Shown here piece by piece: positions 3,334 to 43,017 of a stretch of DNA of 64,000 nucleotides. This DNA comes from Candidatus Iainarchaeum sp. (lineage in GTDB: Archaea > Iainarchaeota > Iainarchaeia > Iainarchaeales > UBA10219), in contig JAGVWE010000006.1 in NCBI GenBank assembly GCA_018304425.1, positions 3,175 to 67,174 of the forward strand. The letters run 5' to 3'. The notes under the pieces are model-generated. The model worked only from the letters and a program-made list of their open reading frames with translations. It was not told where the DNA came from and ran no database searches. The position numbers and the translations under genes were made by a program. How positions within the stretch are numbered: the stretch's first letter is position 1; each line of letters starts with the position of its first letter.

Positions 3334-4785
3334 ATGAGACTCAAGGTTTTGACGCTTAATCCGCCGTTTTTTCCCAAGTACTCGCGGGAATCGCGCTCGC
3401 CTTCGGTGACCAAGGGCGGCACGACCTATTACCCGATGTGGCTCGCGTATGCCACGGGCGTGCTGATGAAGGAAGGCTTCAACACCCGGATGGTGGATGC
3501 CGCGGGGGCCTGCAAGACCAAGGAAGAGGTAACGGACATCATCCGGCACATGAAGCCCGATTACATCGTCACCTACACCTCGACGGGTTCGGTGGTGAAC
3601 GACGCGGAATACATCCAGAGCGTGAAGGATGAGGGCCTGGACTTTTACTCGGTGTTCGTGGGGCCGCACGCGACCGCGACCCCGGTGGAGACCCTGAAAC
3701 TCAATGACGCCATGGACGCGGTTGCGCGAAGCGAGTTCGACTACATCGTGCGCGACCTGGCGTTCGAGCTGGAAAAGGGCCAGCCGGACTTGTCAAAGGT
3801 CCGGGGCCTCAGCTTCAAGGGCTCGGACGGAAAAATCAGGCACAACGAGCCCATGGACCCCATCGAGAACCTGGATGAGATCCCCTTCGTGTCCAAGGTC
3901 TACAAGCGGTTCCTGAACATCTGGGATTACTTTTACTCGGCCAACCTGTATCCGGAAGTGCAGATTGTCACGGGCCGGGGCTGCCCGTATAGGTGCACGT
4001 TCTGCCACTGGCCGCAGACCATGACCGGGAGAAAGTTCCGGACGCGCTCCATCGAAAACGTGATGGACGAGTTCGACTACATCGAGAAGACCTTTCCGGG
4101 CCTGGGCGAGGTGTTTTTGGAGGATGACACGTTCACGCAGGACCGCAAGCGCGTCAAGGAATTCTGCGAGGCGAAGGCCAGGCACGGCAACGGGCTGGTG
4201 TGGAGTTGTAACGCGCGCGCGGACGTGGACTTGGAGACCTTGAAGGCCATGAAAACCGCGAACTGCCGGCTGGTCTGCGTGGGCATCGAGTCCGGCGTCC
4301 AGGAAGTCCTGAACAACGTCAAGAAGGGCACGACCGTGGAGGGCATCCGCAAGTTTTTCAAGAACACCAAGGAAGCCAATGTCCTGGTGCACGGCTGCTT
4401 CATGCTGGGCAACAAGGGCGACACCAAGGACACGATCAAGAAGACCATCGAGTTCGCGAAGGAGTTGAACCCGGACACGAGCCAGTTCTTTCCCTTGATG
4501 GTGTACCCGGGCACGGAAGCCTATGAGTGGGCCAAGGAACAGGGGCACCTGAAGACCAATGACTACGCGCAGTGGCTGAACGCGGAGGGAGGGCACAACA
4601 CCATCATCGATAGGCCGGGGTTGACGCACGAGGAACTCGTGCAGATGTGCAACGACGCGCGCACGGAATATTATTTCAGGCCCAACTACATGGCGACCAA
4701 GGTCAAGCAGGTGCTGACCCTGCCCATGGAAAGGCGCCGCATCCTCAAGGCGTTCCAGGTGTTCGTCAAGCAGTTGGGCAAGTAA
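3334..4785 (+). CDS. B12-binding (class B) radical SAM enzyme
   Basis: N-terminal Rossmann-like B12-binding region followed by VTGRGCPYRCTFCHWP (a CxxxCxxC motif) and a full radical-SAM core. 483 aa. Confidence 0.85.
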   Translation: MRLKVLTLNPPFFPKYSRESRSPSVTKGGTTYYPMWLAYATGVLMKEGFNTRMVDAAGACKTKEEVTDIIRHMKPDYIVTYTSTGSVVNDAEYIQSVKDEGLDFYSVFVGPHATATPVETLKLNDAMDAVARSEFDYIVRDLAFELEKGQPDLSKVRGLSFKGSDGKIRHNEPMDPIENLDEIPFVSKVYKRFLNIWDYFYSANLYPEVQIVTGRGCPYRCTFCHWPQTMTGRKFRTRSIENVMDEFDYIEKTFPGLGEVFLEDDTFTQDRKRVKEFCEAKARHGNGLVWSCNARADVDLETLKAMKTANCRLVCVGIESGVQEVLNNVKKGTTVEGIRKFFKNTKEANVLVHGCFMLGNKGDTKDTIKKTIEFAKELNPDTSQFFPLMVYPGTEAYEWAKEQGHLKTNDYAQWLNAEGGHNTIIDRPGLTHEELVQMCNDARTEYYFRPNYMATKVKQVLTLPMERRRILKAFQVFVKQLGK

Positions 4786-7456: not shown

Positions 7457-8434
7457 ATGGGCTTACAGGCGAGCGTCATCATCCCGGTCTACAACGGGGC
7501 GGAAACCATTGCGGCCTGCATCGACTCGGCGTTGAAGCAGGACTTCAAGAGCCGGTACGAGGTCATTGTCGTCGACGACGGCAGCACGGACCAGACCGGG
7601 GAAATCGTGGAAGGCTTTGGCCGAAAAGTCAAACTGATTTCCCAAAAGAACCGGGGGCCCGCGGCTGCGCGCAACGCGGGCGCGAGGGCGGCAAAAGGCG
7701 AGTTCATCGTCTTCATGGACGACGACTGCCAGGCCGACAAGCATTGGCTGGCGGAAATGCTGTGGCCCTTTGAGAGCCCGGAAGTCGTGGGCGTCCAGGG
7801 CCGGTACAAGAACCGGCAACGCGAAATCGTGGCACGGCTCATCCACTTGGAGATAGCGGAACGGTATGAGAAGCTGCGCCAGCAACGGTTTGTCGACCAC
7901 ATTGGAACTTATTCGGCTGCCTACCGGAGGGAAACCTTTTTGAAGTGCAAGGGCTTCGACGAAAAGTTTTCGATTGCCTCCGGCGAAGACATTGACCTGA
8001 GTTACCGCCTCGCGGAAAAGGGGTTCAAGCTGGTGTTCAACTGGAATGCCGTGGTGTGGCACCAACACCCTACCTCTGCCTGGCACTACTTTAAGGTCAA
8101 GTTTTGGCGGGCCTACTGGCGCGTGCGGATGTACAAGAAACACAAACGGAAAATCGTGCAGGATTCCTATACCTCGCAGAACGTTAAACTGCAGATTGGC
8201 CTCTTTTACGTGTTTTTAATCGGCCTGGCAGGGCTTTTTTTCACGCAAAAGGCCTTGATAGTCGTGGCCCTGACGGCTTTGGCCTGGTTCCTGTCCATTA
8301 CCAAGTTCTGGGCCTATGCCCTCGGAAAAGACCCCCTGGTTGGGCTTATAACCCCGGTATTCCTGGCCATTAGGACCCTGGTGTTTGGCGTGGGCTTCGC
8401 CTATGGCGTGCTCCGGGAAGGGGTTCTTGGATGA
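7457..8434 (+). CDS. Family 2 glycosyltransferase with C-terminal transmembrane segments
   Basis: SVIIPVYNGAETIAACIDS, VVDDGSTD and FMDDDC are GT-A/GT2 DxD-type motifs. The C-terminal third is hydrophobic. Confidence 0.85.
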   Translation: MGLQASVIIPVYNGAETIAACIDSALKQDFKSRYEVIVVDDGSTDQTGEIVEGFGRKVKLISQKNRGPAAARNAGARAAKGEFIVFMDDDCQADKHWLAEMLWPFESPEVVGVQGRYKNRQREIVARLIHLEIAERYEKLRQQRFVDHIGTYSAAYRRETFLKCKGFDEKFSIASGEDIDLSYRLAEKGFKLVFNWNAVVWHQHPTSAWHYFKVKFWRAYWRVRMYKKHKRKIVQDSYTSQNVKLQIGLFYVFLIGLAGLFFTQKALIVVALTALAWFLSITKFWAYALGKDPLVGLITPVFLAIRTLVFGVGFAYGVLREGVLG

Positions 8435-9545: not shown

Positions 9546-10286
9546 GTGAAAGGGGATGGCATGAAAGGAAAAGCCTGCTTCATTTTGCCGACCTACAATG
9601 AACGGGAAAACGTTGGCAGCGTGGTGCGCGGCGTTTTCGGGGAATGCAAGGCATTGGGCGTCGAGGCCACTGTGCTGGTCGTGGACGACCACAGCCCGGA
9701 CGGCACGGCGGTTGAAGTCGTGAAGCTCCAGCGTTCGTTTCCCCAACTGAAGCTCCTGCAGCGGCCGGCCAAGGAAGGGCTGGGCAAAGCCTATGTTGCC
9801 GGCTTCAAATGGGCATTGGCGAACACGGACTGCGACGTGTTGTTCGAGATGGACGCGGACGGCTCGCACCACGCCGCTTACCTCAAGGACTTCTTCGCGA
9901 AACTGGCGGAAGGCAACGACGTCGTGGTGGGTTCGAGGTACATGCCGGGGGGAAGGCACGAGCAGAGCCCCCTGCACCGCACGCTCATCAGTTACGGCGC
10001 GAATTATCTCATCAAGGCTTTGCTGGCCCTGCCGCTGACGGACGTAACTTCAGGGTACCGCGCCATCCGCCGGGGCGCGCTGGAAAAGCTGGACTTGAAT
10101 GCGTTCAGGTCAAATGGGTATGAGTTCCAACTCGAGCTGCTGCACAAGCTCCATCATTCGGGCGCGCGCATCGGGAAAACCCCGATTGTGTTCACGCCGC
10201 GCGCCAGGGGAAGGTCGAAGATGACGTTCGGGGACATGGCCTCGTTTCTTTGGCTGGCCCTTCGGTTGTGGTTGAACCGCAACTGA
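9546..10286 (+). CDS. Polyprenol/dolichol-phosphate hexosyltransferase-like GT2 (DPM1 family)
   Basis: CFILPTYNERENV, VVDDHSPDGT and DADGSH match the DPM1/AglD-like GT2 signature. 246 aa soluble-type. An alternative ATG start lies at 9561. Confidence 0.85.
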   Translation: MKGDGMKGKACFILPTYNERENVGSVVRGVFGECKALGVEATVLVVDDHSPDGTAVEVVKLQRSFPQLKLLQRPAKEGLGKAYVAGFKWALANTDCDVLFEMDADGSHHAAYLKDFFAKLAEGNDVVVGSRYMPGGRHEQSPLHRTLISYGANYLIKALLALPLTDVTSGYRAIRRGALEKLDLNAFRSNGYEFQLELLHKLHHSGARIGKTPIVFTPRARGRSKMTFGDMASFLWLALRLWLNRN

Positions 10287-11426
10287 CTACTCCTTGGCGG
10301 CAGAAAGCACCGATGCCGCACGCAGGAACTTGGGAAGCACGGCCTCAAGCGCCTTCACCTCACGCCCAGGGAGGGCATCGGAAACAAACAGGCATTCCTC
10401 TTTCACGTCAAATGGATTGTAGCCGTGCATGCCTTTCACCGGCCCGTGGTCGAAGAAGTTGGGGGACAGCACGCGGCCCGGCGAGACGCAGAAGAACTCG
10501 TGGCCGGCCTCGGGCACGCGGTCGAGTTGGAGCGCATTTTTTTCGCGGGTGGACAGGAAGCGACCTCCCTCGACGCCGTTGAAAGCCTCGAAAAGGGCGT
10601 TCCGCTGCGCCTCATCGTTTACCCAAAACCGGGCCATGGTGGAGTCGAGGAAATGCTTGACGCCGTGTAGGCGTTGGAGCGGCTCCCCAATATCGGTTGG
10701 ACCGGTTACCGGGACCATGCCGTGGTCCGACCAGAGGAGGAAGGGCGCGCCTTCTTTTTGCGCGCGGGAAACCAGGCGTTCAATGAGGGCGTCCTGCGCG
10801 CGAAGGGTGGAAGCGAGGGCATCGGGGTCGGGGCCGAGGGCGTGGCCGGAGTGGTCCAGGTCCCAGAAGTGGAAGAAGTAAACATCCTTGTCCAGGGAGA
10901 GGAGCCGTTCGGCGGTGCGGGCGCGTGCGGCGTCGGTGGTGGCCGAGAATTCGAGGGAAACGCCCTGCTCGGTGCCGATGACCGGCCAGTTGTGGCAGAC
11001 GAAGGAGGTGCCTTGGACACGCAGGGAGTCGAAAACGGTGGGCACGGGGAGCGAGCCTGGCTCGGAAATGAATCTTTCCTGGCTGAGCGAGAAGCCGCGC
11101 GCTTTGTTGAGGCCGATGAAGGGCACGACGTTGGTGTGGCCTGCGTAGAAACGCTGGAGGCTGAAGTAGTAGGCGTCAAGCGGCCGCGGCAGGAAGGCGG
11201 AGACGATGCCGCGTATTTTTTCCGGGCCGTTGGCGTAGACGTTGAGTTGGCGGTGCTCGGCAAGCGTCTTACCCGAGTAAAAAGTGGCTGGCACGTTGGC
11301 GTAACCGAAGGGCTTGGGGACCGAGCCCAGGCCGTGCCCGTCGAGGAGGGATTGAAGGAACGGCATGCGCTGCCGCGAAAGGTAGGAAGCGTCAAGGGCA
11401 TCCATCCAGAGGATGAGGGCTTTCAT
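10287..11426 (-). CDS. Alkaline-phosphatase-superfamily enzyme (type I phosphodiesterase / nucleotide pyrophosphatase family)
   Basis: N-terminal WMDALDASYL...ATFYSGKTLAEHRQL and a WDLDHSGHALGPD metal-ligand motif. No sulfatase C/S-x-P-x-R motif. Last gene of a coupled minus-strand operon. Confidence 0.6.
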   Translation of the reverse strand: MKALILWMDALDASYLSRQRMPFLQSLLDGHGLGSVPKPFGYANVPATFYSGKTLAEHRQLNVYANGPEKIRGIVSAFLPRPLDAYYFSLQRFYAGHTNVVPFIGLNKARGFSLSQERFISEPGSLPVPTVFDSLRVQGTSFVCHNWPVIGTEQGVSLEFSATTDAARARTAERLLSLDKDVYFFHFWDLDHSGHALGPDPDALASTLRAQDALIERLVSRAQKEGAPFLLWSDHGMVPVTGPTDIGEPLQRLHGVKHFLDSTMARFWVNDEAQRNALFEAFNGVEGGRFLSTREKNALQLDRVPEAGHEFFCVSPGRVLSPNFFDHGPVKGMHGYNPFDVKEECLFVSDALPGREVKALEAVLPKFLRAASVLSAAKE

Positions 11427-12307
11427 GGGCGTTTCCTCCCAATTACGTAGAAGTGGTGGCTAAGCAGGTATTTGAGGGCGCGTGGCAGGGCCGCTTCAAA
11501 GGCCAAAAGCTGGTCCATGGGATGCCGGCGGGCAAGCAACGCCTCGTTGCCGGCGGGAAGCGCGTCCCACACCCAGGCCTTGGCCTGCTGCCGGCCGAAA
11601 AGGAACTTTATTTTCCCGCGGGTGTGCATGTCGAAGGTATCAAACCAGGGGCAGGTGTCAAAGAAACCGGAGTCAACGATTTCAAGGCCCGCCTGCTTGA
11701 AAGCACGCAGGAGGCCACCAGGCCGCATCCATTCAAAGTAGCCGTGATCCCATGCCTGGCCGTTGGCGGCGTGATAGAACCGGTGGATGAAGTAGCCGAT
11801 ATTCCAGGCATTCTGGTTGGCGACCAACACGTATTTTCGGGAAACACGCGCCATTTCGGTAAGGAGATCCGGGGCGTTGTGAAAGTGTTCGAACAGGCAG
11901 TAATTGAAAACCAGGTCAAACGAGTGGTCTTCGTAGGGAAGGTGGGTGAGGGGCGGCTGCAGGGCATCGAATTTTGCCTTTCTTTTGAGGCCCAGCTTGT
12001 TCCAGAACCTGGCGCTATAGTCCAGGAGTTTTCGGCTGGGGCTTGCCACGGTTACGTTGGCGCCATTGCGTGCAAACAAAACGCCGCTGGCGCCTGAAAC
12101 CCCCATGAGGCCGTCGGCTGGGGCCTCCAGAACGTTGTCAACGTCGTTGGCAATGGTTTTCCACAGGATGCGGTTGAAGGAAAGCCGCTCAAAGGCGATG
12201 CCAATGCCTTCGTCGAAGTCCTGGGGCAGGCTGGGCAGGTTACGGTCCAGGAAACCCTGCAGGAGTTTTTCGTCCCGATTCATAAGAGGTCTCTCTCCAT
12301 ATCCCAT
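11423..12307 (-). CDS. Class I SAM-dependent methyltransferase-like protein (paralog A)
   Basis: GVSGASGVLFA is a motif-I-like glycine loop. A YVLVANQNAWNIGYFIHRFYH block is shared with the gene at 14611..15384. ATGA-type 4-nt overlap with the downstream gene. Confidence 0.65.
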   Translation of the reverse strand: MGYGERPLMNRDEKLLQGFLDRNLPSLPQDFDEGIGIAFERLSFNRILWKTIANDVDNVLEAPADGLMGVSGASGVLFARNGANVTVASPSRKLLDYSARFWNKLGLKRKAKFDALQPPLTHLPYEDHSFDLVFNYCLFEHFHNAPDLLTEMARVSRKYVLVANQNAWNIGYFIHRFYHAANGQAWDHGYFEWMRPGGLLRAFKQAGLEIVDSGFFDTCPWFDTFDMHTRGKIKFLFGRQQAKAWVWDALPAGNEALLARRHPMDQLLAFEAALPRALKYLLSHHFYVIGRKRP

Positions 12308-13287
12308 CGGACGGTGTCATTTAGGGCCTGCTGGAAGGGTATAACGGGTTTATAGCCCAGGAGGCGCTCGGCTTTGGAGGAAGAGTAAACATGGGGGGTA
12401 GTAAAATAGCGCACCGTGTTCACGCCCATGCGGGGAAACCCGGGCAACAGTCGGGCGATAAAGCTCATGGGATACGCGAGGAGGTAGGCGACGAATACAG
12501 GCAGGAAAAGGAGCCTGGCTTTTTTGCCAAGGGCTACTGCAATGGCTTGGAGGTAGGACCGCAACGCGGGTTTTTCCTGGCCTGAAAGGATGAACGTCTG
12601 GTTGCACGCGGCGCGGTTGCCTGGAACGCTGGCCATGCCCCTGACGAGGTCGCGGACGTCAACCAAGTCGAATTTGTTTTTGCCGTTGCCGAAGACCACG
12701 AAGCCCCCCCGGCTAAGGGCCTTGAAAATATTTTTCCGGTTGGAGGAGTCGCGGGGGCCACACACAATGGAGGGACGGAGAATGCAATAACGCGTCTTCG
12801 TCGGCGCGCAAAGGGCTTTCACGAGTTTTTCGGCCTCGGCTTTGGTGCGCGCATACTTGGTTTCCGGTTGGTAGGGCGCGCGTTCGTCAAGCCCGTTGGC
12901 GGGCGTTGGGCCAAGGACGTCAACGGTGCTGCAGAAGACAAACAATTCGACCCCTGCCTTGATGGAGGCCAGTGAGAGGTTGCGCGTTCCCTCGACATTG
13001 GCTTGCCAGAATGCCTGCTCCGGGTAACGCCCTTCGTCGGACAAGGCCGCCAGGTGGAAGACTACTTGACAGCCGGCCACCAGCAGGGCCAGTGCATTCG
13101 CATCATCCAAGTCGCCGGCCACGGTTTGCACGCCGAGGGCTTCCAGGGCCTGCAAGCGGCTGGATGGCCTGGCGAGGCAAACCACGTCATGGCCGCGGCT
13201 ACGCAGTTCTTCGACCAGGTAACCGCCAATGAAGCCAGTTCCACCAGTTACTGCGACTTTCACGCCATCACGCAGTCCTTTAGCCAT
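12280..13287 (-). CDS. NAD-dependent epimerase/dehydratase with hydrophobic C-terminal segment
   Basis: The track ORF 12280..13404 was trimmed to internal Met-40. That gives an MAKGLRDGVKVAVTGGTGFIGGYLV Rossmann start at 13287. The upstream 39 codons overlap the neighbouring gene. Confidence 0.75.
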   Translation of the reverse strand: MAKGLRDGVKVAVTGGTGFIGGYLVEELRSRGHDVVCLARPSSRLQALEALGVQTVAGDLDDANALALLVAGCQVVFHLAALSDEGRYPEQAFWQANVEGTRNLSLASIKAGVELFVFCSTVDVLGPTPANGLDERAPYQPETKYARTKAEAEKLVKALCAPTKTRYCILRPSIVCGPRDSSNRKNIFKALSRGGFVVFGNGKNKFDLVDVRDLVRGMASVPGNRAACNQTFILSGQEKPALRSYLQAIAVALGKKARLLFLPVFVAYLLAYPMSFIARLLPGFPRMGVNTVRYFTTPHVYSSSKAERLLGYKPVIPFQQALNDTVRWDMERDLL

Positions 13288-13298
13288 CGAAACCCTTT

Positions 13299-14609
13299 TT
13301 AGACGAGTTTTTGGAAGAAGTAAAGCACGTAGGCATCGCAGAAGGCCTTGTCGGCTTCCAGCCAGTCTTCCCTGGCAGAGCCGTGGCCCGCGGGCAGGGG
13401 GCATACTTGGCTTATTTTTTTGCGGGCGAGGGAAAGCTGCCGGAGGTCAAGCCCGCCCTCGGCTTGGATGCAGGAAAGGAGGAGGGGTAGGGCCGAAAAC
13501 AACACAAGGTCAGGGGTCGCCGAATTCAGGAGCACACGCGGATGGAACACGCCATGGAACCGGAGGAGGCGCAGGAAGAACAGGCAATTCAGGTAGAAAC
13601 GCGCGAATGGCAGCAGCAGGCTGGCGGGCAGGGTGAAACCCAGACGATGGCGACAGGCAGCGGAAAGGTACGGTTCAAAGTAGGGGGCCTGAACGCGGCG
13701 GGCAATCGCATCCGATAGTTGTTCAGGCGAGGACATCGAGAGGCCCAGCCACTGGTTGGTGAAGCAAAGCGTTGCCTGCAGAATGCAGTCGCGGGCCTCG
13801 AAGAAGAAGGCTGGAGCGTCGAGTTTTTGCGTGAAGTCCGTGTTGTCCTTGAAGGCAACCACCTGGTTCACGCGTTTTGGCAGGTCAGGAAGCTTTTTGG
13901 CGAGTCCGGGAAATTCTTTGGCATAAGATGCGGCAAATGCCTTGGCGCGTGCGGCATGGGTGGACGCGTACGCGCCCTTCAGGAGCAGGAGGGCTTCCGA
14001 AGCCCCCAGAAAGGCCTTGGAACCCAGCAACAGCAGGCCACGTTTCTCGTTGGGGGTGGGGGGCCTCTCAAAGAATTCAATGGAAAAGTATTCGGCAAGC
14101 ATGGCCATGCGGTTGAGCAACAAGCGGAAGCCTTCGGCAAGCGGGAGGGCCCGCGCGGAAAAAGAGGGCAAGTGGTCGAGGAGGTTCACGCCCGCAATGA
14201 CCGTCGAGGCCTCTCTGAGGTCGTAGTACCTGACAAGGGGCAGCACACGCGGGAGGTCGGCTTCGGAGAGGGTTTTCACGTCCAGGTAAAACGTGTTCGC
14301 GTATTTTTCGCGGTCGAAGAAATAGAAGGGCACTCCGTGACTGGGCAGGCCGAGTTCGCTGACGAGCGCATTGGCGATGTGGTTGAGCTCGGGTTCGCTG
14401 ACGCGCGCGTTCGTCACCACGTACAAGTCGAAGTCGTTGAGGGGAAGGATTTTTCCGTTTTCGCGCGTCCAACCGCCTTCGCCGCGGCCGTAGCCCCCCG
14501 CAAGAATGACTGAAACCGCGCCAGGCACGCGTTGAAGGAGCCCTTTTCCGACTGCCTGAACCAGTCGCGCGATTTCCTTGTCGGCTTGGGGGTCTTTCAC
14601 GAACGGCAT
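13299..14609 (-). CDS. Pol-beta-superfamily nucleotidyltransferase-fold protein, about 436 aa, uncharacterised
   Basis: SVILAGGYGRGEGG ... LPLNDFDLYVVTN matches the [GS]-x(n)-DxD minimal NTase signature. A long helical C-terminal region follows. The start at Met-15 of the track ORF removes the overlap. Confidence 0.45.
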   Translation of the reverse strand: MPFVKDPQADKEIARLVQAVGKGLLQRVPGAVSVILAGGYGRGEGGWTRENGKILPLNDFDLYVVTNARVSEPELNHIANALVSELGLPSHGVPFYFFDREKYANTFYLDVKTLSEADLPRVLPLVRYYDLREASTVIAGVNLLDHLPSFSARALPLAEGFRLLLNRMAMLAEYFSIEFFERPPTPNEKRGLLLLGSKAFLGASEALLLLKGAYASTHAARAKAFAASYAKEFPGLAKKLPDLPKRVNQVVAFKDNTDFTQKLDAPAFFFEARDCILQATLCFTNQWLGLSMSSPEQLSDAIARRVQAPYFEPYLSAACRHRLGFTLPASLLLPFARFYLNCLFFLRLLRFHGVFHPRVLLNSATPDLVLFSALPLLLSCIQAEGGLDLRQLSLARKKISQVCPLPAGHGSAREDWLEADKAFCDAYVLYFFQKLV

Positions 14610-14610
14610 G

Positions 14611-15384
14611 CTATCCCTTTTCGGCGAAAACGTAGATGTGGTGTGCGGCAACCGATTTTATGCTGCCCGGCAACCAGGGGTTCTTCTCGACGAACCAGAG
14701 ACGCTCGAAGGTCTTCAGCCATTCGGCGTAGGATTTCGTGGCTGATGAGATGGGCTTGTCCTTGGGGGCGAGGCCGAACTCGCGCTTGGCTTCCTCAAGG
14801 GAAAAGCCGATGTCCGGGATGAGGGGCAGATCGACATAGCCTTGTTCCAGGATGCGGAGGCCGGCCTGGCGGACGAGTCGAGTGACGCCGGCCACGGTTC
14901 GAAGCCTTGCGGAGCCCCGTTCCGCATGCGTGCAAGCCGCCTGGGAAAAGCGATGGTAGAACCAGTGGATGAAGGTGCCGGGGTTCCAGTAGTTGGGAAC
15001 GCAGACGAGGACGTAGCGCTTGGAATGCGCCACCATCTCTTTCACGATGCCGGGCCGCATCTGGGCGAGCGCGAACGACCAGACGAAATCGTATGTGCCT
15101 GGCTTGTCGGTGAACGCGGGCCTTTTCGGCGCTTGCCACTCCTTGGCATAACGCTTGGCCTCGGCATCGTAAAGGGTCACGTCGCATTTGCCAAGCACGG
15201 GGAGGTTATCGTATCCTTTCGTTATTTCGCAGCCATACTCGCAGACTGACTTGAAACCGTATTTGGCGCGCAGGCGGTCGAGCAGTTCGACGACCATGTA
15301 CCGCTCGTAGAGCGTGCCCACTCCTTCGTGGGCGAGGTTCTCGCAAATCCATTTCCGGGCTGCTTCCAATTCCAGTGCATCCAC
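14611..15384 (-). CDS. Methyltransferase-like protein (paralog B of 11423..12307), motif I degenerate
   Basis: Shares a YVLVCVPNYWNPGTFIHWFYH block with paralog A. The glycine loop is degenerate (EYGCEITKG). The GTG start proposed at 15384 abuts the radical-SAM stop at 15387..15389. The track ORF runs to 15480. Confidence 0.5.
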   Translation of the reverse strand: MDALELEAARKWICENLAHEGVGTLYERYMVVELLDRLRAKYGFKSVCEYGCEITKGYDNLPVLGKCDVTLYDAEAKRYAKEWQAPKRPAFTDKPGTYDFVWSFALAQMRPGIVKEMVAHSKRYVLVCVPNYWNPGTFIHWFYHRFSQAACTHAERGSARLRTVAGVTRLVRQAGLRILEQGYVDLPLIPDIGFSLEEAKREFGLAPKDKPISSATKSYAEWLKTFERLWFVEKNPWLPGSIKSVAAHHIYVFAEKG

Positions 15385-15386
15385 CT

Positions 15387-16469
15387 TCAACCAATAACGA
15401 CTTCGGCGGCCACGCTGGCCAGGGTCTTCAAATCGCAGAGCATCGTGGTGTACGCGGCGTTGGCGAGCGGGCAAAAGCATTCCTTGTCCTTGATGCTCTT
15501 GCGGAGCTTGTCTGCCACGGCGTTGAACCAGATGCGTGGAAAATCGTATCCGTGGTCGCGGAGGTTTCCCATGGACTGGGCCCTGACGCAGCAGGTCCAG
15601 ACGTCGCCCTTCCAGTTGATTTGAGCGGAGGCAACCCCCGCCATGCAGGGAATGGCCTGGGTGCGCTTGCGGAGCACTTCCTTGACCATGGCGTAATAGC
15701 GCTTGCGGAAGGCCTGGGTGACCTTTGAGGTCGCCTTGAAGCTTCGGTCGGCGAGCCGGTCCAGCAAGTGGTCGATGGCCGCAGCATATTCCTCTGCGGA
15801 GGGCGTGAGGCCGAAGCCGACCGTGCCGAGTTCGGGGCGTTCCTCCGCGATTTCCGTGATGTAGGAATCCGGTTCGAGGGCCAGCAAGCCGTCACATATC
15901 CTTGGGAATTCCTTGACGTTGTGCTTGGAGATGACCGTGTGGATGCCGATTTCGAGGTTCTTGAATTCCTTTTTGAGTTCCTTGAGGCCGGCCAGGGTTT
16001 CCATGGACTTCTCCCAGTTCCCGGGCACGCCGCGGATGCGGTCGTGCTGCTCGCGCAAGCCATCCAGGGAGAGGTTGATGATTATTTTGGGGTCCGGGCA
16101 GGATTCCAGGATTTTCCGCGTCTTTTCGAGGATGGCCTTGGAGAGGATGCCATTGGTGGGGATGTTGATGATGCCGGGCCGGCAGTGCCTGCACACGCTC
16201 TGGCACATTTCGGGGAGGTCCTTGCGCATGAAGGGCTCCCCGCCGCTCATGGTGACCCAGAACAGGTTGTCGCCAATGGATTGAAAGGTTTTGTCCCATT
16301 CCTCCAGGGAGAGGTCCTGGGTGCCCTTGTTCTTCCAGATGTTGCAGGTCAAACACTTCGAGTTGCAGTAGCCCAGCGTGCTCACGGTCAGGTTAAGGGG
16401 CAGGGTCCTGGGCCAGCCAAGGGCGTGAAAGGCTTTCAAAGCCGGAATCCGCGAAACAGGTTCCTTCAT
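15387..16469 (-). CDS. Radical SAM enzyme with C-terminal SPASM/twitch-like Cys clusters
   Basis: CNSKCLTCN is a CxxxCxxC motif. C-terminal CMAGV...WTCCVRAQ...ECFCPLANAAY auxiliary cysteines follow. The start at Met-12 gives an ATGA overlap with the GT2 stop at 16466..16468. Confidence 0.8.
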   Translation of the reverse strand: MKEPVSRIPALKAFHALGWPRTLPLNLTVSTLGYCNSKCLTCNIWKNKGTQDLSLEEWDKTFQSIGDNLFWVTMSGGEPFMRKDLPEMCQSVCRHCRPGIINIPTNGILSKAILEKTRKILESCPDPKIIINLSLDGLREQHDRIRGVPGNWEKSMETLAGLKELKKEFKNLEIGIHTVISKHNVKEFPRICDGLLALEPDSYITEIAEERPELGTVGFGLTPSAEEYAAAIDHLLDRLADRSFKATSKVTQAFRKRYYAMVKEVLRKRTQAIPCMAGVASAQINWKGDVWTCCVRAQSMGNLRDHGYDFPRIWFNAVADKLRKSIKDKECFCPLANAAYTTMLCDLKTLASVAAEVVIG

Positions 16470-17344
16470 GGAAGTTCCTTGGTAGATTGTAGGGCTTGCC
16501 AATTAAAAGGGTTTTTATGGCCCAAACAAAGGCGTATGCGTGCAAGCAAGCGGGTGAGACCCTCCAAAAAAGCGCACCCCAAGAGCAAGGGGGCTTCCAA
16601 GGGTCTTTCGGCCAGCAAACCATGGACGGCCTGGAAAAGGGGCGCAAAGCGGGTGGTGGAAGGCTGGTATCCGCGCCTGGCCAGCCAGTAGTGGCCCAAA
16701 TGAATGCGAACGCGTTGAGCCAAAATCTCCGATAACGTGTCCGGCCCCTTGTTCCGGACAATGGCTTGCGGGGCATAGGCGACCTTCAAGCCCCTGGCCT
16801 GGAAAAAGGACTCCAGCCAGGCCTCGTCCACCGCCGTATCCGGGGGAAGCTGCTTGACTTGGTTTCGGAAGCAAATCAGTTCCCCTGCCTTGGGCTGCAG
16901 CAGGGAAACCCGGTGATGCATTTCCCACAGGAACCAGGCAAAGTAACCTGAAAGCGTCCGGCGGGGGTTGACCGGAACCGGATGCGCTCCCACCAGGCCC
17001 ACGGCCGGGTTCGCCAGGCAGTCCAGCATCCCGGCAATCGCTCCCGGTTCAAGGAGGAGGTCGGCGCCTGCCAGGCAAACGATGTCGCCGGCACACCGGG
17101 AGAGGCCGAGGTTGACCGCACTGGCTTTTCCGAGTTTCTCCGGCTGGACCACCAACCCGATTTTTGGGTTGGCGGCTTGCGCACGCCGGACTTCCTGCAC
17201 GGTGTTGTCCGTGCAGCCGCTGGCCACGACCACGATTTCTTTCAAGGCATGCGGGCCCAGCCGCTGGGCCGCCACGCTCGCAAGCAGTCGGTAAATGTTC
17301 TTGCCCTCATTGTAGGCGGGAACAACAATGGAGAGGGTAGTCAT
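16466..17344 (-). CDS. Family 2 glycosyltransferase
   Basis: LSIVVPAYNEGKNI and VVVASGCTDNT match the GT2 signature. First gene of the coupled operon. Confidence 0.85.
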   Translation of the reverse strand: MTTLSIVVPAYNEGKNIYRLLASVAAQRLGPHALKEIVVVASGCTDNTVQEVRRAQAANPKIGLVVQPEKLGKASAVNLGLSRCAGDIVCLAGADLLLEPGAIAGMLDCLANPAVGLVGAHPVPVNPRRTLSGYFAWFLWEMHHRVSLLQPKAGELICFRNQVKQLPPDTAVDEAWLESFFQARGLKVAYAPQAIVRNKGPDTLSEILAQRVRIHLGHYWLARRGYQPSTTRFAPLFQAVHGLLAERPLEAPLLLGCAFLEGLTRLLARIRLCLGHKNPFNWQALQSTKELP

Positions 17345-17371
17345 AGGTTCATCCCAGTAAGCATAAAAAAA

Positions 17372-18286
17372 CTAATACGGCCACTGCAAGTCATCCGACG
17401 ATATGACCCGGTAAAACCCGCTTTCCTCGGGCAACTGCCTGGGCCCCGTCCAGGCGTCCAAGAGGCTGCCGAACTGGCGCTGGGGGTAGAGCGGGCACAA
17501 CATCGTTTCGGGCAGGCTGGCCGCAATGCGGTCGGCATTGGGTTTGTCGAACACCACCTGCGCGCCCTCCCCCTTTGAACAGTAACTGAAGCCGTGACCG
17601 GGATACTGGCAACGCGCGCCCTCGCCCAGCCTTGGCACGCAGTCGCTGTCCGCGTAGCAGAGGAGCCGGGACTCGATGCGGAACAGGAAGGCCTGCCGGT
17701 CGTCCACGCACCAGCTGGTTACCTCCACGTCATGGGCCTTCATCTGCAGGGTGTAACCCTTGCCCTTCACGAGGTAGGGCACGAGACCACTCAGCTTGCC
17801 GGCTCCCACAAAGCCCTTGCCTGGGATTGCTTCCGCCATCAAGTCCCCGACTTCGTCGAAGAGCCTTGCCTCCAGCCGCTGGGGTTGCGGGACATACCGT
17901 GCCACGTCGTCCTTGATTCCGGGCCTGAGCTTTACGTGGAGGTCGCCGAGCCACCCGCTTTTCACGGCATTGAAGTTCACGGAATAGCCTTCAACGGGAA
18001 AGGACGCGGTGGTGCAGGCCTCTTCATACCGTTTCTCCATGCGGTAAGCCATGGGGGAAAGATCCAGGGGAACGGGCGCGCAACTACCCACCGCCAAACC
18101 GGACGAGGAACGCGCTGCGGGCAGGGTGGGCGGCAGGAAAAACAGGGAGAGCACGACGTATTCCAGCAGAAGCCCCGGCAACACGTATCCTAAGACCATC
18201 TTCTTCGCGCCTGCCTGGTTGCGCCCCCACCGGAAAACCGCATACGAGGCCGCGACAAAAAAAATGACTTCCAGGAGGATCATCAA
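17372..18286 (-). CDS. Two-TM-anchored extracytoplasmic Cys-rich protein (divergent paralog of 24038..24868 and 26540..27403)
   Basis: Two N-terminal hydrophobic helices and a TTG start. C-terminal DCVPRLGEGARCQYPGHGFSYCSKG resembles the C..P..TCHSYCK knot of the other two paralogs. Confidence 0.5.
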   Translation of the reverse strand: MMILLEVIFFVAASYAVFRWGRNQAGAKKMVLGYVLPGLLLEYVVLSLFFLPPTLPAARSSSGLAVGSCAPVPLDLSPMAYRMEKRYEEACTTASFPVEGYSVNFNAVKSGWLGDLHVKLRPGIKDDVARYVPQPQRLEARLFDEVGDLMAEAIPGKGFVGAGKLSGLVPYLVKGKGYTLQMKAHDVEVTSWCVDDRQAFLFRIESRLLCYADSDCVPRLGEGARCQYPGHGFSYCSKGEGAQVVFDKPNADRIAASLPETMLCPLYPQRQFGSLLDAWTGPRQLPEESGFYRVISSDDLQWPY

Positions 18287-18338: not shown

Positions 18339-19619
18339 ATGTCCGCCTTCAACCGGAGGGAATGGCAAGCAATTACGGTAATCCTGGTGCTGGCGCTGAC
18401 TTTACGGGTTTTCACCGCCTGGCCGGACGCCCCCATCCCAAACCAGGCACAGATATTCCGCGGTTTTGACGAGACCTCCGTGTTCGAGTACATCGAGCAC
18501 TTCGTCCTTGAAAAAAGGCAGTTGCTCAACTACCCTTACCTCCAACAACCCCTGGGCCGGTATCACTGGTGGGCGGATGCCGGCCAGCCGCCCCTGTACT
18601 TTTTTCTGATGGCCTTGTTTGCGCAGGCCCTCTGCTGCATGGATGCCAACGGCTGGGTGCTGGCCCTGCACCTCCCAACCCTCGCTTTTTCGGTGCTGAC
18701 CGTATTCCTGGTCATGCACATCGCCAGACAGGTGTTCCCGAAACCCGGGTGGCTGGCGCTTGCGGCCGGCCTGTATGCGGCCCTGCAACCGACAAGGATA
18801 TTCTTGACCTCCAACCTCCACAACATTGGGCTGGCCTACTTCCTGGTAACGGTCTTCGTTTACTTCCTCGTCAAAAGACAAAAGCCCTTGACGCCCAGGG
18901 ACTTGTTCATCACCGGCCTCCTCATGGGCCTAGGAATCTGGACCCGCTACACGACGCTGGTAACGGTGCCATTTGCCGCCCTGTGGTTCTACCTCAACCG
19001 GCAAAGGCTGGGAAACTGGAAGAGAAACCTGGCACTGGCCTTGGGCGTGGCGTTGGTGGTGGCGTTGCCGCATTTCCTTTCCAACCTGGCGGTGTATGGC
19101 AAGCCGCTGTCCGCAGGCACGGCCGTTGCATTGACCGACTACCAGAAGCCTTCGCCTGGCTTGCCTACCTTGGAGGAATTTAAAACCATTCTCCCCGCCT
19201 TTTTCACGAGTTTCTGGTACCATAATCACCCCGCCACCGCCCTGTCCGAATACCCGGTGTATGCGGGGCTGCTGGTGTTTACCCTGCTTGCCCTTGCCGG
19301 CCTGGCCAAATACGTCCAGGAGCGGAAGGCCCTGGGGGCCCTGCCGTGGAACTTCTTCGTCAGCAGCCTGGCCATGTGCGGCGCCATCTTGTTGGTGTTG
19401 TTTCATGCGCTGATGACGACCTACTTCAACGCCGAAGGCCGGAGGCTGCTCAACGCCGTGCCCTCCGTAAGCATCTTCTTTCCCCTGGGGTTGTACTGGC
19501 TCGGCAAGGAGAAAAAGGTGGCTGGCTGGGACCTGGGGCTGCTGCTGGTGGCGGGATTGCTGCTGGTCATGGCCTACTTCAACTGGCAGACGTTTTTCGA
19601 CCCGGGCTTCGTCAAATAG
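18339..19619 (+). CDS. Polytopic membrane protein, probable GT-C-fold glycosyltransferase (ArnT/PMT-like)
   Basis: 10+ predicted TM helices. The first loop carries an FDETSVFEY acidic (DE) motif. Divergently paired with a Cys-rich protein gene. Confidence 0.5.
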   Translation: MSAFNRREWQAITVILVLALTLRVFTAWPDAPIPNQAQIFRGFDETSVFEYIEHFVLEKRQLLNYPYLQQPLGRYHWWADAGQPPLYFFLMALFAQALCCMDANGWVLALHLPTLAFSVLTVFLVMHIARQVFPKPGWLALAAGLYAALQPTRIFLTSNLHNIGLAYFLVTVFVYFLVKRQKPLTPRDLFITGLLMGLGIWTRYTTLVTVPFAALWFYLNRQRLGNWKRNLALALGVALVVALPHFLSNLAVYGKPLSAGTAVALTDYQKPSPGLPTLEEFKTILPAFFTSFWYHNHPATALSEYPVYAGLLVFTLLALAGLAKYVQERKALGALPWNFFVSSLAMCGAILLVLFHALMTTYFNAEGRRLLNAVPSVSIFFPLGLYWLGKEKKVAGWDLGLLLVAGLLLVMAYFNWQTFFDPGFVK

Positions 19620-43012: not shown

Positions 43013-43017
43013 GAAAA

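What the first reader, a model, noticed from the sequence alone, without database searches (positions are those of the whole stretch)
10287..17344. Seven-gene translationally coupled operon mixing GT2, radical-SAM/SPASM, two paralogous methyltransferase-like proteins, a Pol-beta-fold nucleotidyltransferase, an epimerase and an AP-superfamily enzyme
All seven minus-strand genes abut or overlap. There are ATGA overlaps at 16466-16469 and 11423-11426, a 0-2 nt gap at 15384/15387, and a 1-nt gap at 14609/14611. Gene order in the transcription direction is: GT2, rSAM with SPASM-type auxiliary cysteines, MTase-like B, a 436-aa NTase-fold protein (GGYGRGEGG...DFDLYV), extended-SDR epimerase, MTase-like A, then a type-I phosphodiesterase/NPP-family metalloenzyme. 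The two MTase-like proteins are paralogs sharing a YVLV..N.WN.G.FIH.FYH block, and one has a degenerate SAM loop. I know of no characterised pathway with this combination. It could install a phospho-linked or nucleotidylated, radical-modified sugar or head group on a glycan or lipid carrier.
Basis: partly seen in the sequence, partly recalled or inferred. Interest (0 to 1): 0.7.

Follow-up and report, generated by a model that had tools for sequence, protein, structure and literature searches.

The report
Archaeal glycan-tailoring operon, uncharacterised enzyme pair
A tightly packed seven-gene operon in a tiny DPANN archaeon joins two conserved but uncharacterised enzyme sets for decorating cell-surface sugars, and one set (a nucleotide-transferring enzyme paired with a phosphodiesterase-like enzyme) recurs, sometimes fused, in polysaccharide loci across many bacterial and archaeal phyla with no known function.

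Summary
Seven minus-strand genes (10287-17344) are separated by at most 11 nt, with three ATGA overlaps. The source is a Candidatus Diapherotrites/Iainarchaeum (DPANN) genome.

All domain calls hold. The 436-aa protein has no HMM match but models confidently as an aminoglycoside-nucleotidyltransferase-like NTase. MT-like B has no HMM match but a class I methyltransferase fold. The "epimerase" is closest to lipid-associated HpnA/OleD-type SDRs.

The operon interleaves two separable conserved modules:
- **Module A:** GT2, rSAM/SPASM, the MT-like pair and the SDR, with a GT-C transferase nearby. It also occurs without module B.
- **Module B:** NTase plus NPP-like metalloenzyme. They are adjacent or fused in 39 of 87 loci across many phyla. 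All three pairwise fusions exist among NTase, NPP-like enzyme and a GT2 whose homologue lies at 7457-8434.

The window's NPP-like protein keeps all six metal ligands but has Ala at the canonical Thr nucleophile.

No characterised pathway matches. My best guess, at about 0.35, is cytoplasmic sugar tailoring through O-nucleotidylylation followed by phosphodiester processing, then export by GT-C. The main rival is a regulatory writer/eraser pair, suggested by STAS proteins in bacterial loci. I rate it a new variant of a known kind, of moderately high interest.

The parts
16466..17344 (-). GT2a: family-2 glycosyltransferase, first gene of the operon and part of module A
   Evidence: Pfam Glycos_transf_2, 88.5 bits. 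Homologues lie next to the rSAM and MT-B genes in L092, L096, L100, L101, L105 and L110-L114. Only weak similarity to polyprenyl-phosphate GT2s (ArnC 31 bits, AglJ 20 bits).
15387..16469 (-). Radical SAM enzyme with a SPASM auxiliary-cluster domain (module A)
   Evidence: Pfam Radical_SAM 52.9 bits and SPASM 26.3 bits, both above their cut-offs. The CNSKCLTC motif (CX3CX2C) is present. No NCBIfam equivalog is reached; the best is AhbC at 68.6 bits against a cut-off of 650. ATGA overlap with GT2a.
14611..15384 (-). MT-like B: class I methyltransferase fold with a degenerate SAM loop and a conserved His/Cys cluster (module A). An alternative TTG start lies at 15390.
13299..14609 (-). NT436: ANT/MNT-HEPN-like nucleotidyltransferase with an extra ~200-aa helical C-terminal domain (module B)
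12280..13287 (-). Extended SDR of the HpnA/OleD/3-beta-HSD-like kind, with a hydrophobic segment
   Evidence: Pfam Epimerase 152 bits and 3Beta_HSD 99 bits. NCBIfam HpnA 177.6, OleD 137.9 and SdmB 105.5 bits, against GalE 71 bits, all below cut-off. TGGTGFIGG and YARTK motifs are present. Hydrophobic stretch at residues 248-278.
11423..12283 (-). MT-like A: class I SAM-methyltransferase family protein and paralogue of MT-B (module A)
   Evidence: Pfam Methyltransf_11, 42.6 bits against a cut-off of 21.2. The family's motif I is LEAPxDGLMGIPG. BLASTP against MT-B gives E=2e-14. ATGA overlaps on both sides.
10287..11426 (-). AP/NPP-like binuclear metalloenzyme lacking the canonical Thr/Ser nucleophile (module B)
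   Evidence: Pfam Phosphodiest, 55.2 bits. The family profile matches ENPP7 (1.3e-21), ENPP4 and bacterial NPP. D9, D191, H195, D234, H235 and H334 are conserved. The nucleophile column is Ala43 here. The motif DSTxARFW (261-268) is nearly invariant. No TM segment.
17363..17371 (-). T7-A-T run between the stop of the upstream gene and the GT2a start; possible archaeal terminator and/or TATA-like element
   Evidence: Read directly from the sequence. No tool here tests archaeal promoters.
17372..18286 (-). Upstream same-strand gene for a 303-aa protein with two N-terminal TM helices and a Cys-containing C-terminal domain. Lineage-specific.
   Evidence: ORF and gene call. TM segments at residues 1-21 and 30-57. 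No Pfam family. No homologue in the other loci.
18339..19619 (+). Divergently transcribed GT-C glycosyltransferase (PMT_2), the likely extracytoplasmic transferase of the system
   Evidence: PF13231 is on record for this product. At least 7 hydrophobic segments. PMT_2 or YfhO GT-C genes accompany module A in L007, L008, L009, L096, L100 and L105.
9546..10286 (+). GT2c: DPM1/AglJ/PpgS-like polyprenyl-phosphate sugar synthase candidate. Convergent, ending back-to-back with the AP gene.
   Evidence: NCBIfam AglJ 63.4, PpgS 62 and Dol-P hexose transferase 42 bits, all below cut-off. The same convergent AP/GT2c arrangement is seen in L008, L011/L097 and L100.
7457..8434 (+). GT2b: membrane-anchored GT2 whose homologues are adjacent or fused to NT and AP homologues elsewhere. 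Third member of the module B triad.
   Evidence: NCBIfam MftF 148 and EpsD 140 bits, below cut-off. C-terminal TM helices. Fusions: AP-GT2b in L040 and L054, GT2b-NT in L073.

Best explanation
This is a cell-surface glycan (or lipid-linked sugar) tailoring operon of a DPANN archaeon, assembled from two conserved modules.

**Module A** comprises GT2a, the rSAM/SPASM enzyme, the MT-B/MT-A pair and the HpnA-like SDR. I infer that it builds and modifies a sugar by radical, redox and methyl chemistry, probably on or near a membrane carrier. The divergently encoded GT-C (PMT_2), fed by a DPM/AglJ-like GT2, then delivers the sugar to an extracytoplasmic acceptor.

**Module B** comprises NT436 and the NPP-like enzyme, working with a GT2.
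- NT436 uses an NTP to O-nucleotidylylate a hydroxyl of the sugar, as aminoglycoside nucleotidyltransferases do.
- The binuclear NPP-like enzyme then acts on the resulting NMP-phosphodiester. Because it lacks the usual Thr nucleophile, it may work without a covalent enzyme intermediate.
- The outcome would be a phosphate or phosphodiester substituent left on the sugar.
- This is a two-step logic like GlcNAc-1-phosphotransferase plus uncovering enzyme in mannose-6-phosphate formation.

**Shown:** gene structure, folds, catalytic-residue conservation, synteny, fusions, and separability of the modules.

**Inferred:** the acceptor, the order of steps, the nucleotide used, the product, and the link to the GT-C.
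For: - **Operon structure:**
- **Folds and families:**
- **NT436 catalytic set:** it keeps the GG loop, D59-x-D/E61 and D110, plus E159, R162, R167 and K198 in the helical domain. Its best structural match, ANT(3'')(9), nucleotidylylates sugar hydroxyls.
- **NT and AP are coupled:** over 87 non-redundant loci they are fused in 4 and directly adjacent in 35. This holds from DPANN, Bathyarchaeota and Nitrososphaerota to WWE3, Chloroflexota, PVC, Cloacimonadota and others.
- **All three pairwise fusions exist:** AP-NT, AP-GT2b and GT2b-NT.
- **Glycan context everywhere:** Wzx/Wzy/Wza/Wzc EPS loci in bacteria; AglB/AglH-type neighbours in DPANN loci; the window itself is a large glycan island.
- **AP active site:** the family keeps all six NPP metal ligands, but the nucleophile column is Ala in the window. 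Across 52 family members it is S/T in 27, C in 9 and another residue in 16.
- **Nucleoside release:** a genuine uridine kinase overlaps the NT start in 15 loci. That fits a pathway releasing free nucleoside.
- **Module A and GT-C:** module A travels with GT-C genes (PMT_2 or YfhO) and B12-rSAMs.
- **Membrane-associated substrate:** the SDR is closest to lipid-acting SDRs and has a hydrophobic segment.
Against: - No biochemical datum exists for any of the seven families.
- Neither the acceptor nor the product can be derived from sequence.
- GT2a is not clearly a polyprenyl-phosphate GT2.
- The window has no recognisable flippase. LPG_synthase_TM proteins occur only in the related loci.
- Most uridine-kinase-linked loci lack an AP gene nearby, so the nucleoside-salvage argument is incomplete.
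- In 22 bacterial loci a STAS switch protein accompanies or abuts the NT, AP and GT2 genes. That favours a regulatory role there.
- The structural neighbours of NT436 also include protein AMPylators: MNT, DrrA and GlnE.
- An AP-fold enzyme without a nucleophile could be a binding protein rather than a catalyst.
Confidence: 0.35

Rival explanations
1. NT436 and the NPP-like enzyme are a regulatory writer/eraser pair. The NTase attaches AMP or UMP to a protein (a STAS switch protein in bacteria; the partner GT2 or another protein in archaea), or it makes a nucleotide signal. The NPP-type phosphodiesterase removes or degrades it, switching glycan synthesis on and off. The parallels are GlnD/GlnE, DrrA/SidD, and GGDEF/EAL control of GT2 synthases.
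For: - STAS proteins that keep the DS[ST]GLG phospho-serine motif are in 22 of 87 loci. They directly abut the AP, NT or GT2b genes in L065, L073, L076, L081, L049, L078 and L091.
- In Cloacimonadota and Victivallales the NT gene sits in the conserved core (PGT, Wzz, Wza, Wzy), not among the variable GTs.
- The AP-NT fusion resembles bifunctional writer/erasers.
- Hydrolysis of NMP-O-R diesters is canonical NPP chemistry (established knowledge).
Against: - There is no STAS gene in the window or in any DPANN/CPR locus.
- In the window the two genes are translationally coupled between an SDR and methyltransferase-like tailoring genes.
- Reduced DPANN/CPR genomes rarely keep elaborate regulators (inference).
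- The hydrolytic nucleophile is missing in the window's protein and in about a third of the family.
- Larger response-regulator-like ORFs in some of the same bacterial loci could carry the conventional partner-switch kinase or phosphatase. This was not checked.
Confidence: 0.25
2. Module B supplies an unusual activated donor for the partner GT2. The AP-like enzyme makes or frees the precursor, acting as a phosphatase, phosphomutase or phosphodiesterase. The NTase then links it to a nucleotide, giving an NMP- or NDP-linked sugar or alcohol. This resembles KdsC-KdsB-WaaA or LicA-LicC-LicD logic.
For: - Three-way fusions of AP, NT and GT2 fit consecutive steps ending in a transferase.
- In 15 loci a kinase (Udk) occupies the position next to NT.
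- A GlmU-like protein is adjacent in 21 loci.
- O-nucleotidylylation of a sugar hydroxyl is also how CMP-sugars are made (established knowledge).
Against: - No Pol-beta-fold NTase is known to make nucleotide sugars (my knowledge).
- GT2 enzymes use NDP-sugars with a metal-bound diphosphate, not NMP-sugars (established knowledge).
- Phosphomutase or phosphatase chemistry in the AP superfamily needs the nucleophile that the window's protein lacks.
- The kinase scores above the uridine-kinase equivalog cut-off, so it is not a sugar kinase.
- The window already encodes conventional RmlA/RmlB-type donor enzymes.
Confidence: 0.12
3. The cluster remodels head groups of membrane lipids that these lipid-auxotrophic DPANN/CPR organisms scavenge. 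An ENPP7/ENPP6-like enzyme removes a phospho-head group, GT2 enzymes glycosylate the lipid, the SDR, rSAM and MTs tailor it, and an MprF-type flippase domain (LPG_synthase_TM) exposes it.
For: - The best PDB match of the AP family is ENPP7, a phospholipase-C-type NPP.
- The SDR is closest to lipid-acting HpnA, OleD and SdmB.
- GT2b hits Glyco_transf_21.
- LPG_synthase_TM lies beside NT/AP in L007, L008 and L009.
- An HpnJ-like B12-rSAM lies at 3334-4785 (421 bits).
- The complete cluster is shared between DPANN and CPR.
Against: - Bacterial NT/AP/GT2 triads sit in classical Wzx/Wzy polysaccharide loci.
- The ENPP7 score barely exceeds those of ENPP4 and bacterial NPP.
- All Hpn-family scores are below their cut-offs.
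- GT-C enzymes and AglB/AglH neighbours point to protein or glycan acceptors.
Confidence: 0.1

Closest known systems
Aminoglycoside O-nucleotidyltransferases ANT(3'')(9)/AadA, ANT(4') and the MNT-HEPN pair
   Different: Only 13% identity and no HMM-level relationship. There is an extra ~200-aa helical C-terminal domain with no match. It is encoded in glycan biosynthesis loci and is obligately linked or fused to an NPP-like enzyme and a GT2. It is not a resistance or toxin-antitoxin gene.
Nucleotide pyrophosphatase/phosphodiesterases (ENPP7, ENPP4, ENPP5, ENPP6, Xanthomonas NPP)
   Same: PF01663 membership. Profile E-values of 1e-21 to 1e-17 to solved NPPs, and all six binuclear-metal ligands are kept.
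   Different: It is cytoplasmic, with no signal peptide or TM segment. The Thr nucleophile is Ala in the window and variable across the family. A family-specific, nearly invariant DSTxARFW motif is present. It always travels with an NTase.
Three-component polyprenyl-phosphate-sugar glycosylation systems (ArnC/ArnEF/ArnT, GtrB/GtrA/GtrV, CsbB/YfhO, AglJ/AglR/AglS)
   Same: A DPM/AglJ-like GT2 (9546-10286) plus a GT-C (PMT_2 here, YfhO in L096). Related loci carry a candidate flippase-type membrane protein, LPG_synthase_TM.
   Different: No flippase is recognised in the window. The system additionally carries rSAM/SPASM, B12-rSAM, an MT-like pair, an SDR, an NTase and an NPP-like enzyme. GT2c scores are below the equivalog cut-offs.
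Hopanoid side-chain tailoring genes (HpnA, HpnI, HpnJ, HpnK) and calditol synthase logic
   Same: The same kinds of enzymes occur together: an HpnA-like SDR (177.6 bits), GT2s, and an HpnJ-like B12-rSAM 5.5 kb away (421.5 bits). In hopanoids and in Sulfolobus lipids, a GT-installed hexose is proposed to be ring-contracted by a radical SAM enzyme (PMC13459092).
   Different: All scores are below the curated cut-offs. The operon's own rSAM is a SPASM type, not HpnJ-like. No hopanoid or GDGT core genes are evident. NT/AP have no counterpart in those pathways.
GlcNAc-1-phosphotransferase plus uncovering enzyme (mannose-6-phosphate tagging). Mechanistic analogy only.
   Same: Two-step installation of a phosphate on a sugar through a covered phosphodiester intermediate that a second enzyme trims (established knowledge).
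   Different: The protein families are unrelated. Here the covering group would be a nucleoside, and nothing has been shown experimentally.
Bifunctional nucleotidylyl writer/erasers GlnD and GlnE
   Different: The eraser here is an AP/NPP fold, not an HD or second NTase domain. The context is glycan loci. No PII or glutamine synthetase link exists.

Membership tests
Pol-beta superfamily nucleotidyltransferase (ANT/MNT-like) | alpha/beta NTase core fold | tested here: met
Pol-beta superfamily nucleotidyltransferase (ANT/MNT-like) | G-[GS] loop, hDh[DE]h pair and a third carboxylate | tested here: met
   G38 invariant and G39 nearly invariant; D59 nearly invariant; position 61 is Asp or Glu in the listed sequences; D110 invariant across 21 sequences.
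Pol-beta superfamily nucleotidyltransferase (ANT/MNT-like) | match to a curated NTase HMM (for example PF01909) | tested here: not met
   The window protein has no Pfam or NCBIfam hit even at E<=10. Homologue P0018 gives PF01909 at E=0.26.
Pol-beta superfamily nucleotidyltransferase (ANT/MNT-like) | nucleotidyl transfer activity | not testable with these tools
   Needs an enzyme assay.
Radical SAM / SPASM | CX3CX2C cluster motif and Radical_SAM domain | tested here: met
   CNSKCLTC is present. PF04055 scores 52.9 bits against a cut-off of 29.5.
Radical SAM / SPASM | C-terminal SPASM auxiliary-cluster domain | tested here: met
   PF13186 scores 26.3 bits against a cut-off of 21.5, over residues 275-331.
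NPP / alkaline-phosphatase superfamily hydrolase | PF01663 domain and six binuclear-metal ligands | tested here: met
   55.2 bits against a cut-off of 23. D9, D191, H195, D234, H235 and H334 are conserved.
NPP / alkaline-phosphatase superfamily hydrolase | Thr/Ser (or formylglycine) nucleophile after the second strand | tested here: not met
   The profile alignment to ENPP7 places its TSPCH Thr opposite Ala43 of the window protein. Across 52 family members the column is S/T in 27, C in 9 and another residue in 16. No C/SxPxR sulfatase motif is present.
Class I SAM-dependent methyltransferase | Rossmann-like methyltransferase fold | tested here: met
Class I SAM-dependent methyltransferase | canonical motif I (E/DxGxGxG) SAM loop | tested here: not met
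   MT-B has VLEYGc..tKGYDN. MT-A has LEAPxDGLMGIPG. SAM binding is therefore unproven, especially for MT-B.
Extended SDR; HpnA equivalog | TGxxGxxG and YxxxK motifs; score above the HpnA cut-off | tested here: inconclusive
   Both motifs are present and PF01370 scores 152 bits, so it is an extended SDR. HpnA scores 177.6 bits against a cut-off of 367.65, so it is not an HpnA equivalog.
Three-component polyprenyl-phosphate sugar glycosylation system | Pren-P sugar synthase GT2, flippase and GT-C encoded together | tested here: inconclusive
   The GT-C is present (PMT_2). The DPM/AglJ-like GT2c is present but below cut-offs. No flippase is identified in the window; LPG_synthase_TM occurs only in related loci.
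Hopanoid Hpn tailoring pathway | HpnA/HpnH/HpnI/HpnJ equivalogs with hopanoid core genes | tested here: not met
   Every Hpn model scores below its cut-off: HpnA 177.6/367.65, HpnH 42.6/225.05, HpnI 30.6/310, HpnJ 421.5/577.6. The organism is an archaeon.
Mycofactocin-like rSAM/GT2/MT cofactor or RiPP cluster | MftA precursor peptide, MftB chaperone, and MftC/MftF/MftM equivalogs | tested here: not met
   MftC 35.4/265, MftF 62.9 (GT2a) or 148 (GT2b)/280, MftM 17.5/200. The operon has no intergenic room for a peptide gene. The module travels with GT-C membrane transferases.

The most novel reading that the evidence does not exclude
The NTase/NPP-like pair is a previously unrecognised, widely distributed two-enzyme route for putting phosphate or phosphodiester groups on glycans. 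An ANT-like enzyme first nucleotidylylates a sugar hydroxyl. A nucleophile-less NPP-fold enzyme then cleaves or exchanges on the nucleoside side without a covalent enzyme intermediate, releasing free nucleoside. In some phyla a co-encoded uridine kinase salvages that nucleoside.
Probability: 0.2. Interest if true: 0.85.

Novelty: new variant of a known kind. Interest (0 to 1): 0.6.

Why it matters
**Understudied organisms.** DPANN archaea and CPR bacteria live attached to hosts, and their surface glycans are almost unstudied. This operon is shared between the two groups at 30-40% identity, so it marks a surface-decoration pathway that has moved across domains.

**An unannotated enzyme set.** The NTase/NPP-like/GT2 triad has about 3400 NTase clusters at 50% identity, no Pfam model, and all pairwise fusions. 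It is a recurrent, unannotated component of polysaccharide loci in PVC, Cloacimonadota, Chloroflexota, Nitrososphaerota and others.

**Possible pay-offs.** Working it out would give one of two things:
- a new enzymatic way to phosphorylate or phospho-link sugars, including an AP-superfamily enzyme that works without its hallmark nucleophile; or
- a new nucleotidylylation switch for polysaccharide synthesis.

Either result would improve annotation of thousands of loci.

Tried and rejected
- **HMM and sequence searches.** Pfam and NCBIfam found nothing for NT436, MT-B or the 303-aa membrane protein, even at E<=10. PDB sequence searches with family profiles for NT436 and MT-B found only noise.
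- **Literature.** Seven full-text searches found no paper describing this gene combination or the NT/AP pair. A Nitrososphaerota N-glycoproteomics paper mentions no phospho-glycans or these genes.
- **Hopanoid-pathway membership.** Rejected; all scores are below cut-off.
- **Mycofactocin/RiPP reading.** Rejected; there is no precursor or chaperone, scores are low, and the module associates with GT-C genes.
- **rSAM/SPASM as an anSME-type maturase of the AP nucleophile.** Rejected. The rSAM travels with GT2a and MT-B independently of AP, most AP loci have no rSAM, and AP lacks a C/SxPxR motif.
- **B12-rSAMs in L008 and L009 as HpnJ orthologues.** Not supported, at only 126-189 bits.
- **Membrane tethering of the fusion proteins.** No TM segments were found, apart from one borderline hydrophobic stretch in L047.
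- **tRNA and Rfam scans of the window.** Both empty.
- **Active-site geometry of the models.** Could not be inspected, because model coordinates are not returned.

Full report
**1. Observation**

The seven minus-strand ORFs exist exactly as described:

| Gene | Coordinates | Length |
|---|---|---|
| GT2a | 16466-17344 | 292 aa |
| rSAM | 15387-16469 | 360 aa |
| MT-like B | 14611-15384 (GTG) or -15390 (TTG) | 257 or 259 aa |
| NTase-like (NT436) | 13299-14609 | 436 aa |
| SDR | 12280-13287 | 335 aa |
| MT-like A | 11423-12283 | 286 aa |
| AP-family | 10287-11426 | 379 aa |

- ATGA overlaps join GT2a/rSAM, SDR/MT-A and MT-A/AP.
- The other junctions are a 2-nt gap or 4-nt overlap, a 1-nt gap and an 11-nt gap.
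- Independent public gene calls on identical contigs agree on these genes.
- A T7-A-T run lies between the stop of the upstream membrane-protein gene (17372-18286) and the GT2a start. It could be both an archaeal terminator signal and a TATA-like element. The seven genes are therefore plausibly their own transcription unit.
- A GT-C gene (PMT_2, 18339-19619) is transcribed divergently across a 52-nt AT-rich spacer.
- A DPM/AglJ-like GT2 (9546-10286) converges on the AP gene with no spacer at all.
- Exact-sequence look-ups place the window in Candidatus Diapherotrites / Iainarchaeum sp., a DPANN archaeon from groundwater metagenomes.

**2. What each protein is**

- **Confirmed by Pfam:** GT2 (88.5 bits), Radical_SAM plus SPASM (52.9 and 26.3 bits), extended SDR (152 bits), Methyltransf_11 for MT-A (42.6 bits), and Phosphodiest/PF01663 for the last gene (55.2 bits).
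- **NT436:** it matches no Pfam or NCBIfam model, even at E<=10, and its family profile finds nothing in PDB sequences.
  - With a 21-sequence alignment it models at pLDDT 92.
  - The glycine loop (G38, G39, G41, R42, G43, E44, G45), D59-x-D/E61 and D110 are conserved. So are E159, R162, N166, R167 and K198 in the helical domain.
  - About 200 C-terminal residues, all helical and partly hydrophobic, have no structural match.
- **MT-B:** it also matches no HMM or PDB sequence.
  - It is a paralogue of MT-A, BLASTP E=2e-14.
- **Motif I:** both MT families have a non-canonical motif I. MT-B additionally has an invariant His/Cys/Glu cluster. It may bind a metal or be a non-catalytic partner of MT-A (inference).
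- **SDR:** it scores best against HpnA (177.6), OleD (137.9) and SdmB (105.5), with GalE at 71. It also carries a hydrophobic segment. It looks like a membrane- or lipid-associated SDR rather than a soluble sugar-nucleotide epimerase.

**3. The AP-family protein**

- A profile of 21 family members matches ENPP7 (1.3e-21), ENPP4, bacterial NPP, ENPP5 and ENPP6.
- All six metal ligands are conserved: D9, D191, H195, D234, H235 and H334.
- The profile alignment places the Thr of ENPP7's TSPCH motif, which I take from memory to be the nucleophile, opposite Ala43 of the window protein.
- Across 52 family members that column is Ser or Thr in 27, Cys in 9 and another residue in 16.
- In the nearest relatives, which sit in the same type of operon, it is Lys, Gly or Ser.
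- A family-specific motif, DSTxARFW, is nearly invariant.
- The protein has no signal peptide or TM segment.
- It is thus an NPP-fold binuclear metalloprotein that probably cannot use the textbook covalent mechanism.

**4. Conservation and modular structure**

*Distribution of NT436 relatives*
- A scan of one genome per species found NT436 relatives in DPANN (Pace-, Woese- and Nanoarchaeota), Bathyarchaeota, Nitrososphaerota, WWE3 and Dehalococcoidia.
- Homologues matching mainly the N-terminal ~230 residues occur in many bacterial phyla.
- A full HMMER scan of 1.84 billion representatives gives 3449 clusters at E<=1e-3 and 944 at E<=1e-30.

*NT and AP*
- I searched the six-frame ORFs of all fetched loci with the window's proteins.
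- Over 87 non-redundant loci, an AP homologue is fused to the NT homologue in 4, directly adjacent on the same strand in 35, and elsewhere in the locus in 15.
- All three pairwise fusions exist:
  - AP-NT: L025, L031, L044, L047
  - AP-GT2b: L040, L054
  - GT2b-NT: L073
- GT2b is the homologue of the window's GT2 at 7457-8434.
- NT, AP and this GT2 therefore form a functional triad, which I call module B.

*Module A*
- A metagenome scan seeded with MT-B shows that GT2a, rSAM/SPASM, MT-B and MT-A, often with the SDR, form a second module.
- Module A occurs without NT/AP in L092, L096, L105 and L109.
- It occurs with NT/AP in L097, L100 and L101.
- It is accompanied by GT-C genes (PMT_2 in L105, YfhO in L096) and by B12-rSAMs.

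*Complete set*
- GT2a, rSAM, MT-B, the SDR, NT and AP all recur, in varying order, in WWE3 (L007/L010), Pacearchaeota (L011/L097) and L100. They also recur in L008, where MT-B is represented by a 241-aa gene recovered only by alignment.
- L101 shows the same order up to a truncated NT at the contig end.
- MT-A itself was detected only in the window and in loci that lack NT/AP.
- In the DPANN loci L008 and L009 the set sits beside AglB (STT3), an AglH-type GT and LPG_synthase_TM proteins.
- The window's operon is thus an interleaving of two separable modules.

**5. Bacterial context of module B**

- The triad lies in classical Wzx/Wzy loci, with Wza, Wzc/Wzz, Wzy_C, Bac_transf and GT4s.
- Cloacimonadota, Victivallales and relatives share a regular core. 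Its gene order is:
  1. PGT (Bac_transf)
  2. STAS protein
  3. GlmU-like protein
  4. uridine kinase
  5. NT
  6. AP, in some loci
  7. Wzz
  8. Wza
  9. Wzy
- The kinase scores above the curated uridine-kinase cut-off (223 against 180 in L058). Its gene overlaps the NT start in 15 loci.
- STAS proteins keeping the DS[ST]GLG serine occur in 22 loci. In several they abut the AP, NT or GT2b genes.
- Neither STAS nor Udk occurs in the DPANN/CPR operons.

**6. Mechanism**

*Shown*
- The operon structure.
- The folds.
- The conserved catalytic residues of an ANT-like NTase.
- An NPP metal site without the nucleophile.
- The tight evolutionary and physical coupling of NT, AP and a GT2.
- The coupling of module A to GT-C transferases.
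- The glycan context.

*Inferred (confidence about 0.35)*
- NT436 O-nucleotidylylates a hydroxyl of a sugar on a nascent or carrier-linked glycan.
- The NPP-like enzyme processes that NMP-diester, leaving a phosphate or phosphodiester substituent.
- Module A supplies radical, redox and methyl tailoring.
- The product is transferred outside by PMT_2 using a polyprenyl-phosphate-linked donor.
- The uridine kinase in bacterial loci fits a pathway that liberates free nucleoside. However, most such loci lack a nearby AP gene.

*Rivals*
- **Regulatory writer/eraser or nucleotide-signal pair (0.25).** Supported by STAS co-occurrence, by AMPylator-like structural neighbours, and by the core position of NT in some EPS loci.
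- **Synthesis of an unusual activated donor (0.12).** Weakened by GT2 donor requirements and by the missing nucleophile.
- **Head-group remodelling of scavenged lipids (0.10).** Suggested by ENPP7 similarity, the lipid-type SDR, LPG_synthase_TM and an HpnJ-like rSAM nearby. Contradicted by the bacterial EPS context.

**7. Comparison with known systems**

- NT436 works like an ANT or MNT enzyme, but it is not a member of any curated NTase family.
- The last gene is a PF01663 member but fails the nucleophile criterion.
- The GT2c/PMT_2 pair resembles three-component Pren-P-sugar systems. The window lacks an identified flippase.
- Hopanoid (Hpn) and mycofactocin memberships were tested and not met.
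- PMC13459092 summarises the proposal that HpnJ and calditol synthase ring-contract GT-installed hexoses. This is the nearest precedent for radical SAM tailoring of a lipid-linked sugar, but the operon's rSAM is of a different (SPASM) type.

**8. Verdict**

- Its claim of an uncharacterised combination stands after family, structure and literature checks.
- The main additions are four:
  - the two-module architecture;
  - the wide distribution and fusions of the NT/AP/GT2 triad;
  - the missing nucleophile;
  - the regulatory alternative raised by STAS.
- In kind it is a glycan-tailoring cluster, which is known. It is built on enzyme families with no characterised member, so I classify it as a new variant of a known kind, with interest 0.6.

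Noticed in passing
window 3334-4785 (+), with 1529-2503 and 2467-3234: A B12-binding radical SAM protein scores 421.5 bits, full length, against the HpnJ model (cut-off 577.6). HpnJ is the enzyme proposed to ring-contract a hopanoid-linked glucosamine. This one is in an archaeon. It sits directly after an RmlB equivalog (451 bits, above the 365.1 cut-off) and an RmlA-like gene.
   Followed up: partly
L048-L091, e.g. L058:9334-9957 and L058:7591-7941: In bacterial loci carrying the NTase homologue, a genuine uridine kinase overlaps the NTase start in 15 loci. A STAS-domain protein with an intact phospho-serine motif lies in the same locus in 22 loci. Neither is an expected component of an EPS locus.
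   Followed up: partly
window 42000-54000: GC content falls from about 0.60 to 0.45-0.48. This stretch includes two long ORFs with no Pfam match (46968-48701, 577 aa; 50742-52229, 495 aa). Next to it are a second PMT_2 GT-C (43018-44691) and an AsnB-type amidotransferase (41120-43021). It looks like a variable or acquired part of the glycan island.
   Followed up: no
window 10284-10289: The stop codons of the convergent AP gene (TAG, minus strand) and GT2c gene (TGA, plus strand) are directly back-to-back, with no spacer and no room for a terminator. The same convergent pair recurs in L008, L011/L097 and L100.
   Followed up: partly
window 14611-15384 (MT-like B family): This methyltransferase-fold family has lost the GxGxG loop but has invariant H140, H144, C151, H153, E155, H248 and H249. 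That suggests a metal site or a non-methyltransferase function.
   Followed up: partly
L007/L010 (candidate division WWE3) versus the window and L011 (Pacearchaeota): The whole cluster is shared between CPR bacteria and DPANN archaea at roughly 30-40% protein identity. This indicates inter-domain transfer of a surface-glycan pathway between two groups of ultra-small episymbionts.
   Followed up: partly
window 30199-32634 (-): An 811-aa protein with a Big_5 Ig-like domain lies next to a Wzx-type flippase gene (33396-34859). It may be a surface or S-layer-type glycoprotein that serves as a substrate of the island.
   Followed up: no
L105:475-3026: In one module-A locus, a FrhB/FdhB-like F420-type iron-sulfur protein and a polysaccharide pyruvyl transferase lie upstream of the B12-rSAM, rSAM, GT2a, SDR, MT-B and MT-A genes.
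   Followed up: no
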